Source of the DNA: a virus
Lineage: Duplodnaviria; Heunggongvirae; Uroviricota; Caudoviricetes
Reading direction: 5' to 3' (one strand)
DNA length: 49,166 nucleotides
IMG/VR virus record: IMGVR_UViG_2923307698_000008
The position numbers are program-made. Shown piece after piece: positions 42,001 to 45,000 of the stretch (the first letter of the stretch is position 1; each line of letters begins with the position of its first letter).

Positions 42001-45000
42001 CTAATTTTTTCGCGAGTGCTATCTAGCATTTTGCCCTCCTCTAAAAACTATAAGCAAAGCCTACAATAAAAAACTGTATGCAATCAACAGTTTTTTATTG
42101 TGATGCTTTTAACAGTATTTACCTGTAAAATTGAATAATGATGAGCGCCCTAGAAGTATCTATGTACAGAATCAGCAAGCTTCTTCAGGAAACTGGATGG
42201 AGCCAGGCTGAGCTTGCCCGTAGAATTGGTGTGACACAACAAACTGTTCAACAATGGGTCAGCGGTAAGGCTACACCTAAAGCCTCAAGTTTGGATAAAC
42301 TGGTTGAGGTTTCAGGGCATCCATTGCATTGGTTTTTATTGCCTCCTGAAGAGTGTGAGCAAATTTTCACCCCTGACACGATGAAAATTGGTCCTCGCCA
42401 ACGCGAACTGCTCCAAGCTTTTAGTGCGTTTCCTGAGGAAGACCAAGAAAAAATGCTTCAAGAAATCAAAGACAAGAAAAAATCAATGGAAGAAACCATT
42501 GCTAGGTGGCTGGCGGCACAAAAAAGCCGCCGGGCGTGACCACAGTACAAGAAGAGGAGTTATGCCATGGGTACAGCCCTTTCTCCGATAGTTTCAGAAT
42601 TCGAAACTACCGAACAAGAAAACAGTTACAACGAATGGTTGCGCACTAAAGTAACGTCAAGCCTTGCAGACACTCGCCCCGCAATTCCACATGACGAGGT
42701 AATGGCTGAAATGGAAAATCTTATTGCTCAAATTGCTGTAACTAACAAGAGCGAGTAATGTTACCCATTTTATGGCTACCGTCTGCTCGCGATGATTTGC
42801 GCCAGATCATAACTTACATCGCCAAGGAGAACCCACCGGCAGCACGTAGACTAAAAATACGCATTGAAACATCGGTATTACCTCTATCTGAGCATCCGTA
42901 CTTATATCCACCAAGCGAACGGGTTTCTGGATTGAGAGAGATCGTGACCCACCCTAACTACATAATCCTGTACAGAGTAGCAGCTTCAAGCATTGAGATT
43001 GTAAGCGTGACACATTCTCGGCGACAATTTCCCTTCTCTATCTGAGTTGAACAATTTTCATACTCCCTCTTTCGAGGGATTTTTTTGCCCAAAACAACAA
43101 TTAAAAACTGTTGACACAAAACAGTTTTTAATTGTAGATTACATACACCACCCCCCCACCCCGCCCCACAGAACGCCGGGCAATACTTCGAGTTACCAAG
43201 CAGTGGTCAGGGGGTAAGTAGCCAGCCCGAGGCGTATGAACATGACGGCAGGGTTCAACTTTAATAACTATGCAGCAGGTTTTTGTTCCGCTACCCGGCG
43301 TTAAGGGGAAATGAGGTCAACATGGATACTATCGATCTTGGCAACAACGAATCTCTGGTGTACGGCGTGTTTCCCAACCAGGACGGTACATTCACCGCGA
43401 TGACGTATACCAAAAGCAAAACGTTTAAAACCGAAAATGGTGCCCGTCGCTGGCTGGAAAGAAACTCAGGTGAGTGATATGGATTTCGACACAATCATGG
43501 AAAAGGCTTACGAAGAATACTTCGAAGGCCTTGCCGAAGGCGAGGAAGCTCTCAGCTTCAGTGAGTTTAAACAGGCGCTTTCCAGTTCGGCAAAATCTAA
43601 CGACTAACGGAGTTAAAGATGGAATTTAAAGATTTACTAAAAGAAATCCAGGAAATTGCAGCACATGCACTTCACCAACGTCTGAACGAAGTTGAATTAG
43701 AATCTGCAACGAAGAAATACATTGATAATATGGCTCGTAATGTGCGCGATGCGTTTACCGGATTGTACTCTGTTTCGGTAACAAACAACCAGAATACTGA
43801 AGAAACTGCAAAGCGGATTGCCTCGGTGATGGGTTTTCATGTCGAGGAAAAGTATTCAAAAAAAGAATTCTGGAAAACTACAAAAAAATTGCAGAGCGAG
43901 AACTGTCATCTCCTGCGGCAATCGCTTCTTTCTATGAGGAAAGTTATTCAGATGACACAGGATTACCGGAACTGCTCTCATTACTTGAAAAATTCGGAAT
44001 TATCATGAAAGGGACTGCGTCGGCGGATTTCACATACTCAATGATGGCTGCTGATGGAGAGCCTTTTCCTCCCGAACTTAAAATAACCCCCGGCAATCAT
44101 CCGATGGTAACAATAAGAGCAATAGAGAATTACTGGTTTAATCCAGTTCAACAATAGTTGGTCTTTGCAATATTTTTAATGGGCCACTACGCCCTTAATC
44201 TCGGGCGACGTTTAACTCTTTATTCAGTAAATCAGACTGATACTGATTTGGCTTTGTAATGATACTGTCAAGTTTTGATATATGAAATTCAACATGTTCT
44301 GGACAGTTAAAAATGTAATAACCGCCCTTCTCTAAAAAGCCAGAAAGAGCGTTACAGGCAGGGCATGGTTTGTTTGGCATTTTATCCTCCATTAAGGGCT
44401 GAATTAAAAATGGAGACCAACACGCTGCTACGTGTGGTCGTGCGCCGGACACAGATAAGAATCCGGCACTGACAGTTTACTGAAAGGATATATCCCTGAA
44501 AAGTCAGGGCATAACACGAAAGTGCACGGCGAAGTCCTTCTCCCTTAGAGCCGTCGTTAAATTTAATTCGACCGTGCGCTTCCGGTTGTGGCAATCCGCG
44601 AAATGGCGCGGCGGTAAGTATGGCGGGGTTATTCTTTCCCCGTTGAGGACACCGGGTTGTCAGGTTGACCATACGCTTAAGTGACAACCCCGCTGCAACG
44701 CCCTCTGTTATCAATATTCTGGTGACATTTGGCGGTATCAGTTTTACTCCGTGACTGCTCTGCCGCCCTTTTTTAAAAGTGAATTTTGTGATGCGGTGAA
44801 TGCGGCTCAGCGCACGCGGAACAGTTAAATCGGTAAAGCGGTCATTTGCTGAGTAACGAGAATGCTCTGTATCCGGCGTTAATTGTTAACTGGTTAACGT
44901 CACCTGGAGGCACCAGGCACCGCATCACAAAATTCATTGTTGAGGACGCGATAATGGAAAAGTTATCATGTAATGCCAGCACGTCTGAACTTCGTTTCGA

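What the first reader, a model, noticed from the sequence alone, without database searches (positions are those of the whole stretch)
42030..43135. Three-component toxin-antitoxin operon fused to the immunity repressor, with a duplicated operator
The gene in the cI position is a DicA-like repressor that heads an operon with a ParE-type toxin and its antitoxin (TAATG overlap). The same palindrome core AAAAACTGT-N9-ACAGTTTTT occurs in the divergent promoter region and again after the toxin, overlapping a TTGACA upstream of the ydfA-dicF-dicB operon. One repressor would then control immunity, the toxin-antitoxin pair and the division-inhibitor operon.
Basis: partly seen in the sequence, partly recalled or inferred. 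Interest (0 to 1): 0.6.

Follow-up and report, generated by a model that had tools for sequence, protein, structure and literature searches.

The report
Known prophage repressor–toxin–antitoxin immunity operon
This is the immunity switch of a lambda-like E. coli prophage whose repressor gene carries a ParE toxin–antitoxin pair as passenger and shares its operators with the promoter of the DicF/DicB cell-division-inhibitor operon. The arrangement is real, but this locus and a sister locus are already described, so it is ordinary.

Summary
AAAAACTGT-N9-ACAGTTTTT occurs exactly twice in 49 kb (expected 0.02): between the divergent cro-like and repressor genes, and after the toxin gene around a TTGACA. 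Downstream lie ydfA, ydfB, a ydfC-like ORF, DicF and dicB.

All six proteins from YdaT to YdfA are 100% identical to ECs_1071–ECs_1065 of prophage Sp4 in E. coli O157:H7 Sakai. By elimination this is the paaR1-paaA1-parE1 system of Hallez 2010. For the sister system paaR2-paaA2-parE2, Jurenas 2021 showed experimentally that PaaR2 acts like CI, YdaS like Cro and YdaT like CII, and that PaaR2 and YdaS repress a PL-type promoter after parE2. In Qin, DicA repression of the dicBF promoter is established.

What I add is a refinement of the palindrome. The repeated unit is a 15-bp, 434-like operator, ACA[A/G][T/G]-N5-[A/C][C/T]TGT. It occurs five times in the window and nowhere else (expected 0.71): three in OR and two in OL. 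The sites sit at about −19 and −43 of PR, PRM and PL. Relatives with the same recognition helix (TQQTVQQ), some lacking the toxin–antitoxin pair, keep this 3+2 layout. Relatives with a different helix have other operators. The toxin–antitoxin pair is therefore swappable cargo. Repressor binding remains untested.

The parts
41348..41773 (-). ydaT-like gene (CII analogue), 141 aa
   Evidence: Pfam YdaT_toxin 1.2e-9. It is 89% identical to the YdaT of the PaaR2-type locus L006 and identical to Sakai ECs_1071.
41763..41780 (.). YdaT operator (OM-like) TTGATTTTCATGAATCAA at the ydaS/ydaT junction. It marks the expected PRE-type promoter region that reads towards the repressor operon.
   Evidence: This is the only exact match in the window to TTGATT-N6-AATCAA. 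That motif and its position at the end of ydaS were footprinted for CP-933P YdaT (PMC9986795).
41757..42029 (-). ydaS/cro-like gene, 90 aa. Its recognition helix AQQTVWQW resembles that of the repressor.
   Evidence: Pfam YdaS_toxin 8e-10. BLASTP against the repressor's HTH gives 54% identity over 28 aa. Identical to ECs_1070.
42058..42087 (-). Putative PR: -35 TTGATT (42087..42082), 18-nt spacer, -10 TAGGCT (42063..42058). It has the same layout as PL.
   Evidence: Read directly from the minus strand. The 41-nt inverted match between OR and OL includes the TAG of the -10 (I1). The -35 and the T-A...T of the -10 are kept in 12 loci while the rest of the spacer varies. The consensus scan did not call it because the -10 is weak. 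Inference.
42063..42077 (.). Operator O1, ACAATAAAAAACTGT, centred about -19 of PR
   Evidence: Unchanged in 10 of 12 aligned loci; one has an A-run shorter by one base and one has a central A-to-G change. Found at -75 from the ATG in all relatives with the same helix.
42087..42101 (.). Operator O2, ACAGTTTTTTATTGT. It is centred about -43 of PR and about -44 of PRM, so it is shared by the two divergent promoters.
   Evidence: Invariant in 12 of 12 loci.
42112..42126 (.). Operator O3, ACAGTATTTACCTGT, centred about -19 of PRM.
   Evidence: Invariant in 12 of 12 loci. Present at -26 from the ATG in L061 and L062.
42126..42131 (+). Putative PRM -10 TAAAAT. The ATG at 42138 lies 6 nt downstream, there is no Shine-Dalgarno sequence, and the -35 is weak (ATGCTT, 42103..42108). 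This suggests a leaderless mRNA.
   Evidence: Read from the sequence. PaaR2 has the same geometry (GATAAT-TACCAC-ATG) and was shown to be leaderless (PMC8630535). The geometry is conserved in L061, L062 and L069. Inference.
42138..42539 (+). Immunity repressor (PaaR1-type), 133 aa: N-terminal HTH plus a C-terminal helical region shared with PaaR2 and DicA. It has no S24 peptidase domain.
   Evidence: Pfam HTH_3 2.3e-12 and no peptidase hit. Best PDB match is the 434 repressor. 42% identity to PaaR2 over 98 aa and 28% to DicA. Identical to ECs_1069, annotated 'phage repressor protein'.
42567..42758 (+). paaA-family antitoxin, 63 aa
   Evidence: Pfam PaaA2 5.6e-19. PDB 3zbe PaaA2 1.4e-20. Identical to ECs_1068.
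42758..43045 (+). parE-family toxin, 95 aa, overlapping the paaA stop codon by 1 nt (TAATG)
   Evidence: Pfam ParE_toxin 2.9e-17. PDB 5cw7 ParE2 3e-36. Identical to ECs_1067.
43064..43086 (+). Intrinsic terminator-like site at the end of the repressor-antitoxin-toxin operon (TCCCTC-TTTC-GAGGGA followed by T7)
   Evidence: The stem is kept in relatives, in some cases with base changes.
43097..43111 (.). Operator OL1, ACAATTAAAAACTGT, centred about -43 of PL
   Evidence: In L017 and L060 it is replaced by ACAGTTATTTATTGT, which still fits the 15-bp consensus but breaks the long palindrome.
43111..43140 (+). PL-type promoter: TTGACA, 18-nt spacer, TAGATT
   Evidence: 10 of 12 consensus matches. 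It is the analogue of PL933P, which PaaR2 and YdaS repress (PMC8630535), and of dicBp, which DicA represses.
43121..43135 (.). Operator OL2, ACAGTTTTTAATTGT, centred about -19 of PL
   Evidence: Natural variants ACAATTTTTAATTGT and ACAGTTTTTTATTGT still fit the consensus. The OL1-OL2 spacer is 9 or 10 nt among strains.
43322..44008 (+). ydfA (43322..43477), ydfB (43479..43607) and a ydfC-like ORF (43619..44008), the first genes of the PL operon
   Evidence: Pfam DUF1391 1.7e-28. Annotation of the same genes in SS17 and Sakai. Same order as in Qin.
44717..44768 (+). DicF small RNA
   Evidence: Rfam RF00039, 77 bits against a gathering score of 48.
44954..45142 (+). dicB cell-division inhibitor, 62 aa
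   Evidence: Translation. Annotated as dicB in the matching loci.

Best explanation
The region is the immunity switch of an Sp4/CP-933M-type lambdoid prophage.

A 133-aa HTH repressor without a peptidase domain (PaaR1-type) plays the CI role. A YdaS-like protein with a similar recognition helix plays the Cro role. The two are transcribed divergently from a 108-bp region holding three 15-bp operators, consensus ACA[A/G][T/G]-N5-[A/C][C/T]TGT, spaced 24-25 bp apart.

- O1 and O2 bracket the -35 of PR. O2 and O3 bracket the weak -35 of PRM.
- Repressor bound at O1 and O2 would shut off ydaS-ydaT and, from about -44, probably stimulate its own leaderless transcript. Binding at O3 would limit that transcript.

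The repressor mRNA continues through paaA and parE, so the antitoxin and toxin are made only as passengers of the immunity transcript, which ends at an intrinsic terminator. Eleven bases further on, two more copies of the operator bracket the -35 and fill the spacer of a strong PL-type promoter. That promoter drives ydfA-ydfB-ydfC-like ORF-DicF-dicB.

One repressor would therefore hold the lytic side, its own operon with the toxin-antitoxin pair, and the division-inhibitor operon. YdaT, the CII analogue, has its exact operator at the ydaS/ydaT junction and would give a second, PRE-type route into the repressor operon.

Shown here: the anatomy, the statistics, the homologies, and the co-variation of operator with recognition helix. 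Inferred: binding, promoter activity, leaderless initiation, activation at O2, and co-transcription.
For: - Identity of the parts.
- Protein identity to Sakai Sp4 ECs_1065-1071: with the Sp4 annotation.
- Motif statistics. The 27-bp core occurs twice against 0.02 expected. The 15-bp consensus occurs exactly five times, all in OR or OL, against 0.71 expected, and no shuffle out of 100 reached five.
- Phylogenetic footprint. In 12 E. coli loci, O2 and O3 are invariant and O1 is unchanged in 10. The inter-operator spacer changes except at the PR -35, and the flanks diverge.
- Co-variation 1. Five heteroimmune versions of the same architecture (window type, L003/L004, L005, L006 = PaaR2, and Qin/DicA) each share words between their own OR and OL (9-14 nt). 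Across types they share 6-9 nt; L005's own 9-nt word is not longer than its cross-type matches.
- Co-variation 2. IMG/VR relatives down to 48% identity that keep the helix GVTQQTVQQW keep the layout: L061 and L062-64 have three sites at -75/-51/-26 plus two downstream. L069 has four consensus matches and one degenerate site. Relatives at 66% identity with helix AQQSVQKW have none.
- The recognition helix TQQTVQQ aligns with 434 repressor TQQSIEQ. The annotated 434 operators are ACAAACTTTCTTGT, ACAATGTATCTTGT and ACAGTTTTTCTTGT, which have the same ACA[A/G] half-sites.
- Cro and repressor share the helix motif.
- There is an exact YdaT operator and an 89%-identical YdaT.
- Experimental precedent: PaaR2, YdaS and YdaT and the promoters PR, PRM, PL and PRE of CP-933P (PMC8630535); YdaT footprint (PMC9986795); DicA/DicC and dicBp; ParE1/PaaA1 specificity as summarised in PMC4803016.
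Against: - No binding, transcript or reporter data exist for this repressor or these sites, and I could not read Hallez 2010.
- PR has a poor -10 (TAGGCT) and PRM a poor -35, so both promoter assignments rest on analogy and conservation. The consensus scan found only PL.
- The widened 15-bp consensus was partly derived from the same family of sequences, so its fit there is not fully independent. The narrower consensus ACART-N5-AYTGT, taken from the window alone, does match L061 at 0-1 mismatch per site.
- Operator A/T runs and the OL spacer vary by 1 nt among O157 strains: Sakai has N10 and SS17 has 14-bp sites. This could mean relaxed selection in a defective prophage, or sequencing error.
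- The operators are 15 bp rather than the 14 bp of 434, so the 434 analogy is not exact.
- How the repressor would be inactivated is unknown. It has no peptidase domain, and the window holds no Rem-like antirepressor.
Confidence: 0.85

Rival explanations
1. One reading: each site is one long operator, AAAAACTGT-N9-ACAGTTTTT, bound by a single repressor dimer across 27 bp, and there are only two such sites.
For: In the window and its closest relatives both copies are perfect 39-bp palindromes. The single base that differs between the two copies is mirrored in both arms.
Against: - A third, solitary 15-bp unit lies at 42112..42126. It is invariant in 12 loci and has no partner arm.
- In L017 and L060 the left OL arm is ACAGTTATTTATTGT, so the two units are direct rather than mirrored, yet each still fits the 15-bp consensus.
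- L061, L062 and L069 keep 15-bp units at the same positions without a long perfect palindrome.
- The spacer is N9 or N10 among strains.
- The heteroimmune L005 and L003 types also show two roughly 15-bp sites about 23-25 bp apart around the PL -35.
Confidence: 0.08
2. The palindromes are nucleic-acid structures (hairpin terminators or cruciforms) or plain duplication scars, not protein-binding sites.
For: The OL copy was flagged as terminator-like on the minus strand, with 16 pairs followed by a T-rich tail.
Against: - Only 3 of the 16 pairs are G-C.
- The loop holds a consensus -35 in both copies.
- The OR copy lies between two divergent start codons, where no terminator is needed.
- Conservation follows the ACA/TGT half-sites rather than stem complementarity.
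- The motif changes together with the repressor's recognition helix.
Confidence: 0.03
3. A conventional type II circuit: the PaaA-ParE complex, not the HTH protein, is the main regulator acting at these sites.
For: For the sister system, the PaaA2-ParE2 complex partly represses the operon promoter (Hallez 2010, as summarised in PMC4803016).
Against: - PaaA has no DNA-binding domain; only the PaaA2 toxin-binding family was matched (PMC8630535).
- Relatives that lack paaA and parE altogether (L061, L062-64, L069) keep the same operators in the same places.
- L058 and L059 have lost most of the toxin-antitoxin pair through one deletion and still keep all five sites.
Confidence: 0.03
4. The circuit is a decayed remnant. 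The sites and genes are recognisable but no longer regulate anything in this defective prophage.
For: - Sp4 is defective in several functions, and its repressor was scored 'D' for lacking the peptidase domain (PMC2669165).
- Homopolymer-length variants occur in OL and O1 among strains.
- The exact OL version of the window over a 90-bp query is found in only 1 of 509 genomes.
Against: - All genes from ydaT to dicB are intact in the window.
- The OR-plus-HTH module is at least 99% identical in 439 of the 510 genomes that carry it.
- The operators are more conserved than their flanks.
- The O157:H7 paralogues were reported to be expressed and the antitoxins to be specific to their own toxins (PMC4803016).
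- The sister locus is an active bistable switch (PMC8630535).
Confidence: 0.06

Closest known systems
paaR1-paaA1-parE1 of E. coli O157:H7 (Hallez et al. 2010), on prophage Sp4 of strain Sakai. I take Sp4 to be the counterpart of EDL933 CP-933M from my own knowledge.
   Same: It is the same locus. YdaT, YdaS, repressor, antitoxin, toxin and YdfA are 100% identical to ECs_1071-ECs_1065. PMC8630535 states that a homologue of paaR2-paaA2-parE2 lies on CP-933M. PMC4803016 reports two paralogous systems whose antitoxins do not cross-neutralise.
   Different: The window is about 98% identical to Sakai Sp4 over the early region, not identical. It differs by 1 nt in the OL spacer and 1 nt in OL2. No paper in the searched library prints operators for this paralogue. 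I assign the name '1' by elimination: each O157 genome has two places, and the other is the PaaR2 type.
paaR2-paaA2-parE2 / ydaS-ydaT immunity region of CP-933P (Jurenas et al. 2021; Prolic-Kalinsek et al. 2023)
   Same: - Same gene order and spacing.
- Same C-terminal region of the repressor (42% identity over 98 aa).
- ParE matches the ParE2 structure at E 3e-36, about 70% identical by my reading of the alignment. PaaA matches PaaA2 at E 1.4e-20.
- YdaT is 89% identical and has the same operator.
- Operators are repeated at OR and at a PL promoter after parE.
- The -10/6 nt/ATG geometry of a leaderless repressor mRNA is shared.
- ydfA...dicB lie downstream in L006.
   Different: - The N-terminal DNA-binding domain and recognition helix differ (SYLSQLMSGR against TQQTVQQWVSGK).
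- The operators differ: GTTTAGT-type repeats against ACA[A/G]T-N5-A[C/T]TGT.
- OR is 97 bp with four inverted repeats, against 108 bp with three sites.
- The two are therefore heteroimmune.
DicA/DicC-dicBF of the Qin prophage, E. coli K-12
   Same: A short repressor without a peptidase domain sits in the cI position, faces a cro-like gene, and is followed by a PL-type promoter driving ydfA-ydfB-ydfC-DicF-dicB. DicA represses dicBp, and the switch is bistable. Full-length homology is 28% identity, E 6e-12.
   Different: - Qin has no toxin-antitoxin pair between dicA and dicBp.
- Its operators are of the TGTTAG type.
- The window repressor scores 51.5 on the NCBIfam DicA model, below the cut-off of 101.
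- Qin has the antirepressor Rem, and the window has no homologue.
Phage 434 cI/cro with OR and OL
   Same: - The 434 repressor is the best solved-structure match of the HTH (E 3e-5).
- The recognition helix is TQQTVQQ against TQQSIEQ.
- Half-sites are ACAA/ACAG, as in 434 OR1-OR3.
- OR is tripartite, and Cro shares the helix motif.
   Different: - Operators are 15 bp rather than 14 bp, and centre-to-centre spacing is 24-25 bp rather than 22-23 bp.
- OL has two sites here; 434 is reported to have three (PMC1636474).
- There is no C-terminal LexA-like cleavage domain.
- The cargo after the repressor gene is a toxin-antitoxin pair rather than hex.
Lambda cI-rexA-rexB
   Same: Passenger genes are co-transcribed with the immunity repressor between cI and OL/PL. 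PMC9986795 states that paaA2-parE2 replaces rexA-rexB.
   Different: The cargo here is an addiction module rather than an exclusion system, and the proteins are unrelated.

Membership tests
PaaR-PaaA-ParE three-component toxin-antitoxin system | ParE-family toxin | tested here: met
   Pfam PF05016 2.9e-17. PDB ParE2 5cw7 3e-36 over residues 1-93.
PaaR-PaaA-ParE three-component toxin-antitoxin system | PaaA-family antitoxin without a DNA-binding domain, encoded immediately upstream of parE | tested here: met
   Pfam PF21217 (PaaA2) 5.6e-19 is the only hit. PDB 3zbe 1.4e-20. The stop and start codons overlap as TAATG.
PaaR-PaaA-ParE three-component toxin-antitoxin system | A third gene upstream encoding an HTH regulator with the PaaR C-terminal region, in the order R-A-E | tested here: met
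   HTH_3 2.3e-12. 42% identity to PaaR2 over the C-terminal 98 aa. The gap to paaA is 27 bp.
PaaR-PaaA-ParE three-component toxin-antitoxin system | The three genes are co-transcribed from a promoter upstream of paaR | not testable with these tools
   Consistent with the sequence only: no internal promoter-like site, and a terminator only after parE. Shown for paaR2 according to PMC4803016.
PaaR-PaaA-ParE three-component toxin-antitoxin system | The toxin is toxic and is neutralised by its own antitoxin | not testable with these tools
   Reported for the O157:H7 paralogues by Hallez 2010, as summarised in PMC4803016. The window proteins are identical to those of O157:H7 Sakai.
Lambdoid immunity region (CI/Cro/CII with OR and OL) | Divergent repressor and cro genes separated by repeated operators that overlap both promoters | tested here: met
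   Three 15-bp sites lie in the 108-bp intergenic region, at 24-25 bp spacing.
Lambdoid immunity region (CI/Cro/CII with OR and OL) | The same operators recur at a second, leftward promoter (OL/PL) beyond the repressor operon | tested here: met
   Two sites bracket TTGACA at 43097..43135. The layout is conserved in relatives.
Lambdoid immunity region (CI/Cro/CII with OR and OL) | A CII-type activator gene after cro, with its own binding site | tested here: met
   YdaT is 89% identical to the characterised type. There is an exact TTGATT-N6-AATCAA at 41763..41780.
Lambdoid immunity region (CI/Cro/CII with OR and OL) | A repressor with a LexA/S24-type self-cleavage domain (SOS induction) | tested here: not met
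   The protein is 133 aa with no peptidase family among 18 Pfam hits. PMC2669165 notes that the Sp4 repressor lacks the peptidase domain. It works like CI but is not a CI-family protein.
DicA (NCBIfam NF007257 / PRK09706) | Score at or above the curated cut-off of the DicA model | tested here: not met
   51.5 bits against a cut-off of 101, although the alignment spans positions 9-131 of the 135-position model. BLASTP gives 28% identity.
DicA (NCBIfam NF007257 / PRK09706) | DicA-type operators (TGTTAG...CTAACA) at OR and at dicBp | tested here: not met
   The window operators are ACA[A/G]T-N5-A[C/T]TGT. The Qin OR and OL share only 6-7 nt words with those of the window.
DicA (NCBIfam NF007257 / PRK09706) | Position immediately upstream of the promoter of ydfA-ydfB-ydfC-DicF-dicB | tested here: met
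   The same downstream operon is present, but the toxin-antitoxin pair is inserted between the repressor gene and the promoter.
434-type repressor/operator recognition | Recognition helix with Gln-Gln at its start and Gln at +5 | tested here: met
   TQQTVQQ aligned to 434 TQQSIEQ. The role of these residues in reading ACAA comes from textbook knowledge of the 434 co-crystal structures and was not tested here.
434-type repressor/operator recognition | 14-bp operators ACAA-N6-TTGT | tested here: inconclusive
   The outer half-sites match (ACAAT and ACAGT also occur in 434 OR2 and OR3), but the sites here are 15 bp. SS17 carries 14-bp variants.

The most novel reading that the evidence does not exclude
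The gap between the repressor gene and OL is a general cargo bay in this family of peptidase-less, 434-like immunity modules. The same repressor and operator set carries nothing (L069), unknown small ORFs (L061, L062) or PaaA-ParE.

With PaaA-ParE as cargo, the module would become a dead-man's switch. Any event that silences or deletes the immunity transcript would free ParE and at the same time derepress DicF and DicB. This would lock the immunity region, and its control over host cell division, into the chromosome.

Jurenas 2021 already proposed the addiction part for the sister locus. The coupling to DicF/DicB and the cargo-bay generality are not established.
Probability: 0.3. Interest if true: 0.35.

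Novelty: already known. Interest (0 to 1): 0.15.

Why it matters
The value is modest. The locus adds a second, heteroimmune example to the one PaaR-type switch studied so far, and it comes with a concrete operator code: five 15-bp sites whose half-sites resemble those of phage 434. That makes cross-immunity among the many lambdoid prophages of Shiga-toxin-producing E. coli directly testable. It also makes it possible to ask whether loss of this repressor releases DicF and DicB. In the literature, DicF and DicB affect cell division, phage receptors and, as I recall, virulence regulation in enterohaemorrhagic E. coli. The comparison also shows that the toxin-antitoxin pair is swappable cargo of the immunity transcript, which fits the published idea that it acts as an addiction module stabilising the immunity region. 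None of this changes current understanding.

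Tried and rejected
1. Hallez 2010 could not be read. What it showed is taken from PMC8630535, PMC4803016 and PMC3141249, so the statement that this is the '1' paralogue is by elimination.
2. A full-text search for the operator sequences found no paper.
3. I asked whether the O157:H7 'DicA/DicC' studied in PMC6915034 is this locus. Its primers encode a different protein, so it is not.
4. I looked for an RNA element in the conserved C-rich leader 43146..43325. There was no Rfam hit at E up to 1, and it folds no better than shuffled sequence (z +1.57). 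A structured RNA is rejected; a Rho-loading or nut-like role remains open.
5. I looked for a Rem-like antirepressor in the window. tblastn gave nothing better than E 0.39.
6. PADLOC gave no hit for PaaA or ParE and only generic HTH hits for the repressor. The cargo ORFs of L061 and L062 gave only a sub-threshold EACC1 hit and DUF2767.
7. I asked whether mirror symmetry of the operator pair is selected. L061 gives 14/15 mirrored against 13/15 direct identity, which does not discriminate, and the OL pairs of L017 and L060 are direct. I rejected it as a conserved feature.
8. I considered predicting the repressor's structure and did not run it. Domain content and homology were already clear, and the result would not test binding.
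9. I found no paper in the library stating that Sp4 corresponds to CP-933M. That equivalence is from memory.

Full report
**1. The observation**

The sequence reads as described.

- The pattern AAAAACTGT-N9-ACAGTTTTT matches at 42069..42095 and 43103..43129 and nowhere else in 49,166 bases, even with three mismatches allowed. Shuffles give 0.02 matches on average, and none of 100 gave two.
- Both copies are really 39-bp palindromes with 15-nt arms. They are ACAATAAAAAACTGT-N9-ACAGTTTTTTATTGT at 42063..42101 and ACAATTAAAAACTGT-N9-ACAGTTTTTAATTGT at 43097..43135. The tool reports the first copy's arms as 100% complementary. The second copy's arms are also perfectly complementary by direct reading.
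- The second copy holds TTGACA (43111..43116). With an 18-nt spacer and TAGATT, this is the only + strand promoter-like site in 41900..43400. A G+C-rich terminator-like stem with a T-run lies just before it, at 43064..43086.
- The ORFs are a cro-like gene 41757..42029 (-), a repressor gene 42138..42539, an antitoxin gene 42567..42758 and a toxin gene 42758..43045 that shares one base with the antitoxin stop codon (TAATG).

**2. What the genes are**

- Pfam assigns YdaS to the cro-like protein, HTH_3 (with no peptidase) to the repressor, PaaA2 (5.6e-19) to the antitoxin, ParE_toxin (2.9e-17) to the toxin, DUF1391 (YdfA) to the next gene, and YdaT to the gene beyond cro.
- Against solved structures, the toxin matches ParE2 (5cw7, 3e-36) and the antitoxin matches PaaA2 (3zbe, 1.4e-20). 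The best match of the repressor is the N-terminal domain of the phage 434 repressor.
- Rfam finds DicF at 44717..44768 (77 bits), and dicB follows at 44954..45142.

**3. It is a known locus**

- The 1.7-kb region is present at 80% coverage or more in 508 of 5,426 complete E. coli genomes. It is 99.9% identical in many O157:H7 strains, whose records show two places each.
- In O157:H7 Sakai the region lies in the annotated 'prophage Sp4, lambda-like phage' as ECs_1065-ECs_1071, where ECs_1069 is called 'phage repressor protein'. All six proteins from YdaT to YdfA are identical to those of the window.
- The window as a whole aligns to Sp4 at about 98% identity, so it is an Sp4-type prophage of another strain.
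- The second O157 paralogue is represented here by L006. Its repressor starts MQKKE, its intergenic region is 97 bp, and its ParE and PaaA sequences are those of the crystal structures. These are the features published for paaR2-paaA2-parE2 of CP-933P (PMC8630535).
- That paper states that a homologue lies on CP-933M. [quoted passage not shown]
- By elimination, the window holds the paaR1-paaA1-parE1 system of Hallez et al. 2010. I could not read that paper. That Sp4 corresponds to CP-933M is from my own knowledge.

**4.

- Jurenas et al. 2021 showed that PaaR2 is a functional analogue of CI with a leaderless mRNA. PaaR2 and YdaS footprint overlapping repeats between the divergent genes and repress both promoters.
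- They also showed that a promoter with similar operators, PL933P, lies beyond parE2 and is repressed about 100-fold by either protein. YdaT activates a PRE-type promoter, and the switch is bistable.
- Prolic-Kalinsek et al. 2023 footprinted YdaT on TTGATT-N6-AATCAA at the end of ydaS. They describe paaA2-parE2 as replacing rexA-rexB.
- For Qin, DicA repression of dicBp, operators at both dicCp and dicBp, and bistability are established.
- Asadulghani et al. 2009 had already noted that the Sp4 repressor lacks the peptidase domain.

**5. What the palindromes really are**

Each 15-nt arm is itself a near-palindrome, ACAAT-N5-ACTGT.

- The pattern ACART-N5-AYTGT, taken from the window alone, matches exactly only at the four arms. 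It matches with one mismatch at 42112..42126, 25 bp from the second arm.
- The slightly wider ACARK-N5-MYTGT matches exactly five times in the window, all in these two regions. Chance expectation is 0.71, and no shuffle out of 100 reached five.
- OR therefore has three sites (centres 42070, 42094, 42119) and OL has two (centres 43104, 43128).

Reading the minus strand, the cro promoter has the same build as PL: TTGATT (42087..42082), 18 nt, TAGGCT (42063..42058). The predicted geometry is then as follows.

| Promoter | Site near -19 | Site near -43/-44 | Predicted -10 | Predicted start |
|---|---|---|---|---|
| PR (minus strand) | O1 | O2 | TAGGCT 42063..42058 | about 42051 |
| PL | OL2 | OL1 | TAGATT 43135..43140 | about 43147 |
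| PRM | O3 | O2 | TAAAAT 42126..42131 | ATG at 42138 |

The PRM -10 lies 6 nt before the ATG at 42138, with no Shine-Dalgarno sequence. This is the same geometry as the experimentally leaderless paaR2 (GATAAT-TACCAC-ATG). These promoter assignments and the activating role of O2 are inferences.

**6. Comparative tests**

- (a) In 12 E. coli loci of this immunity type, O2 and O3 are invariant. O1 changes in two: one has an A-run shorter by one base and one has a central A-to-G change. The inter-operator spacer varies except at the PR -35, and the flanks diverge in L017.
- (b) In L017 and L060, OL1 is ACAGTTATTTATTGT. Each unit still fits the consensus, but the long palindrome is gone. Sakai has an N10 spacer, and SS17 has 14-bp variants. 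The conserved entity is therefore the 15-bp unit, not the 27-bp or 39-bp palindrome.
- (c) Five heteroimmune versions of the same architecture each share their own words between OR and OL. These are the window type, L003/L004, L005, L006 (PaaR2) and Qin. Within a type the longest shared word is 9-14 nt. Across types it is 6-9 nt; L005's own 9-nt word is not longer than its cross-type matches. In each version the repressor and Cro share a recognition-helix motif.
- (d) Among 50 IMG/VR relatives, L061 (80% identity) and L062-64 (68%) keep the helix GVTQQTVQQW. They have three sites at -75, -51 and -26 from the ATG and two more downstream. L069 (48% identity, same helix) has four consensus matches plus one degenerate site. 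L065-68 are 66% identical but have helix AQQSVQKW, and they have none. The operator therefore tracks the recognition helix rather than overall similarity.
- (e) The helix TQQTVQQ aligns with TQQSIEQ of the 434 repressor. The annotated 434 operators are ACAAACTTTCTTGT, ACAATGTATCTTGT and ACAGTTTTTCTTGT. These have the same outer half-sites but are 14 bp long. That Gln28, Gln29 and Gln33 read ACAA in 434 is textbook knowledge and was not tested here.

**7. The toxin-antitoxin pair is cargo**

- L061, L062-64 and L069 have no paaA or parE. Between the repressor gene and OL they carry a 120-aa ORF (sub-threshold EACC1 hit), a 123-aa ORF plus a DUF2767 gene, or nothing.
- L058 and L059 have one deletion that fuses the 5' end of paaA to the 3' end of parE and leaves the repressor and all five sites intact.
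- Within E. coli genomes, the window-type OR-plus-HTH module is found in 510 genomes. The region from OR to ydfA is found at 80% coverage or more in 508, so this module nearly always comes with the toxin-antitoxin pair.
- This matches the published view that the pair inserted into an immunity region and acts as an addiction module there.

**8. Other checks**

- YdaT is 89% identical to the characterised type, and its exact operator lies at 41763..41780.
- The repressor is homologous to DicA over its full length, but only distantly: 28% identity, and 51.5 bits on the NCBIfam model against a cut-off of 101. Its last 98 residues are 42% identical to PaaR2. According to Jurenas 2021, PaaR2 forms octamers.
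- The 180-nt leader after PL is C-rich, conserved across immunity types, unstructured (z +1.57) and without an Rfam match.
- The window has no Rem-like antirepressor, so how the switch is thrown is unknown.

**9. Verdict**

The system is already known. What is not in the literature I could search is the operator code of this immunity type. That is a small, testable addition. Binding, promoter activity and co-transcription remain untested for this paralogue.

Noticed in passing
window 43146..43321: The roughly 180-nt leader between PL and ydfA begins with a C-rich tract (CACCACCCCCCCACCCCGCCCC). It is highly conserved across heteroimmune loci, whereas the Qin leader is much shorter. It has no Rfam hit and folds no better than shuffled sequence (z +1.57). 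A Rho-loading or nut-like site is possible but untested. The length of the C-run varies among strains.
   Followed up: partly
L009 (Sakai Sp4), L002 (SS17), L011, L013 compared with window 43097..43135 and 42063..42077: Among O157 and related strains, the OL spacer is N9 or N10 and the A/T runs inside O1 and OL2 vary by one base; SS17 has 14-bp versions. Over a 90-bp query that also includes the variable C-rich tract, the exact OL version of the window is found in only 1 of 509 carrier genomes, whereas OR is at least 99% identical in 345. These could be real slippage variants that change PL spacing (18 or 19 nt) or homopolymer sequencing errors.
   Followed up: partly
L058 and L059, 2930..3060: A single internal deletion fuses the first 22 or so codons of paaA to the 3' end of parE, removing both functions at once. 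The repressor, the terminator and all five operators remain. This is the expected safe route for losing an addiction module.
   Followed up: partly
L061 3053..3415; L062 3080..3689; L069 2926..2966: Relatives with the same repressor helix and operators carry different cargo between the repressor gene and OL. L061 has a 120-aa ORF with a sub-threshold EACC1 hit, L062 has a 123-aa ORF plus a DUF2767 gene on the other strand, and L069 has nothing. None of these ORFs hit PADLOC.
   Followed up: partly
L008 (Escherichia phage Evi, LR597642.1) 3471..4615: A deposited phage genome carries the PaaR2-type module: a 372-nt regulator gene followed by a 192-nt ORF. The parE position is unannotated, and a Kil gene and a CP-933P-type exonuclease gene lie downstream. 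PaaR-type immunity modules may therefore not be confined to defective prophages.
   Followed up: no
window 35783..35957 (-), 30542..30732 (-), 30812..31058 (-), 15533..15649 (+): Rfam also finds a sok antitoxin RNA (so the same prophage holds a hok/sok-type module as a second toxin-antitoxin system), the sRNA STnc100, three tRNA genes, and an ALIL pseudoknot that marks an IS3-family element.
   Followed up: no
window 43619..44157: The ydfC-like reading frame is 129 aa (43619..44008) and is followed by an overlapping 50-aa ORF (44005..44157). Qin ydfC is 72 aa. The 390-nt ORF is annotated as a hypothetical protein in SS17 and Sakai. I did not examine its relation to ydfC.
   Followed up: no
window (whole), tblastn with Qin Rem: The window has no homologue of the Qin antirepressor Rem (best E 0.39), and the repressor lacks a peptidase domain. 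The inducing signal for this switch is therefore unidentified.
   Followed up: yes
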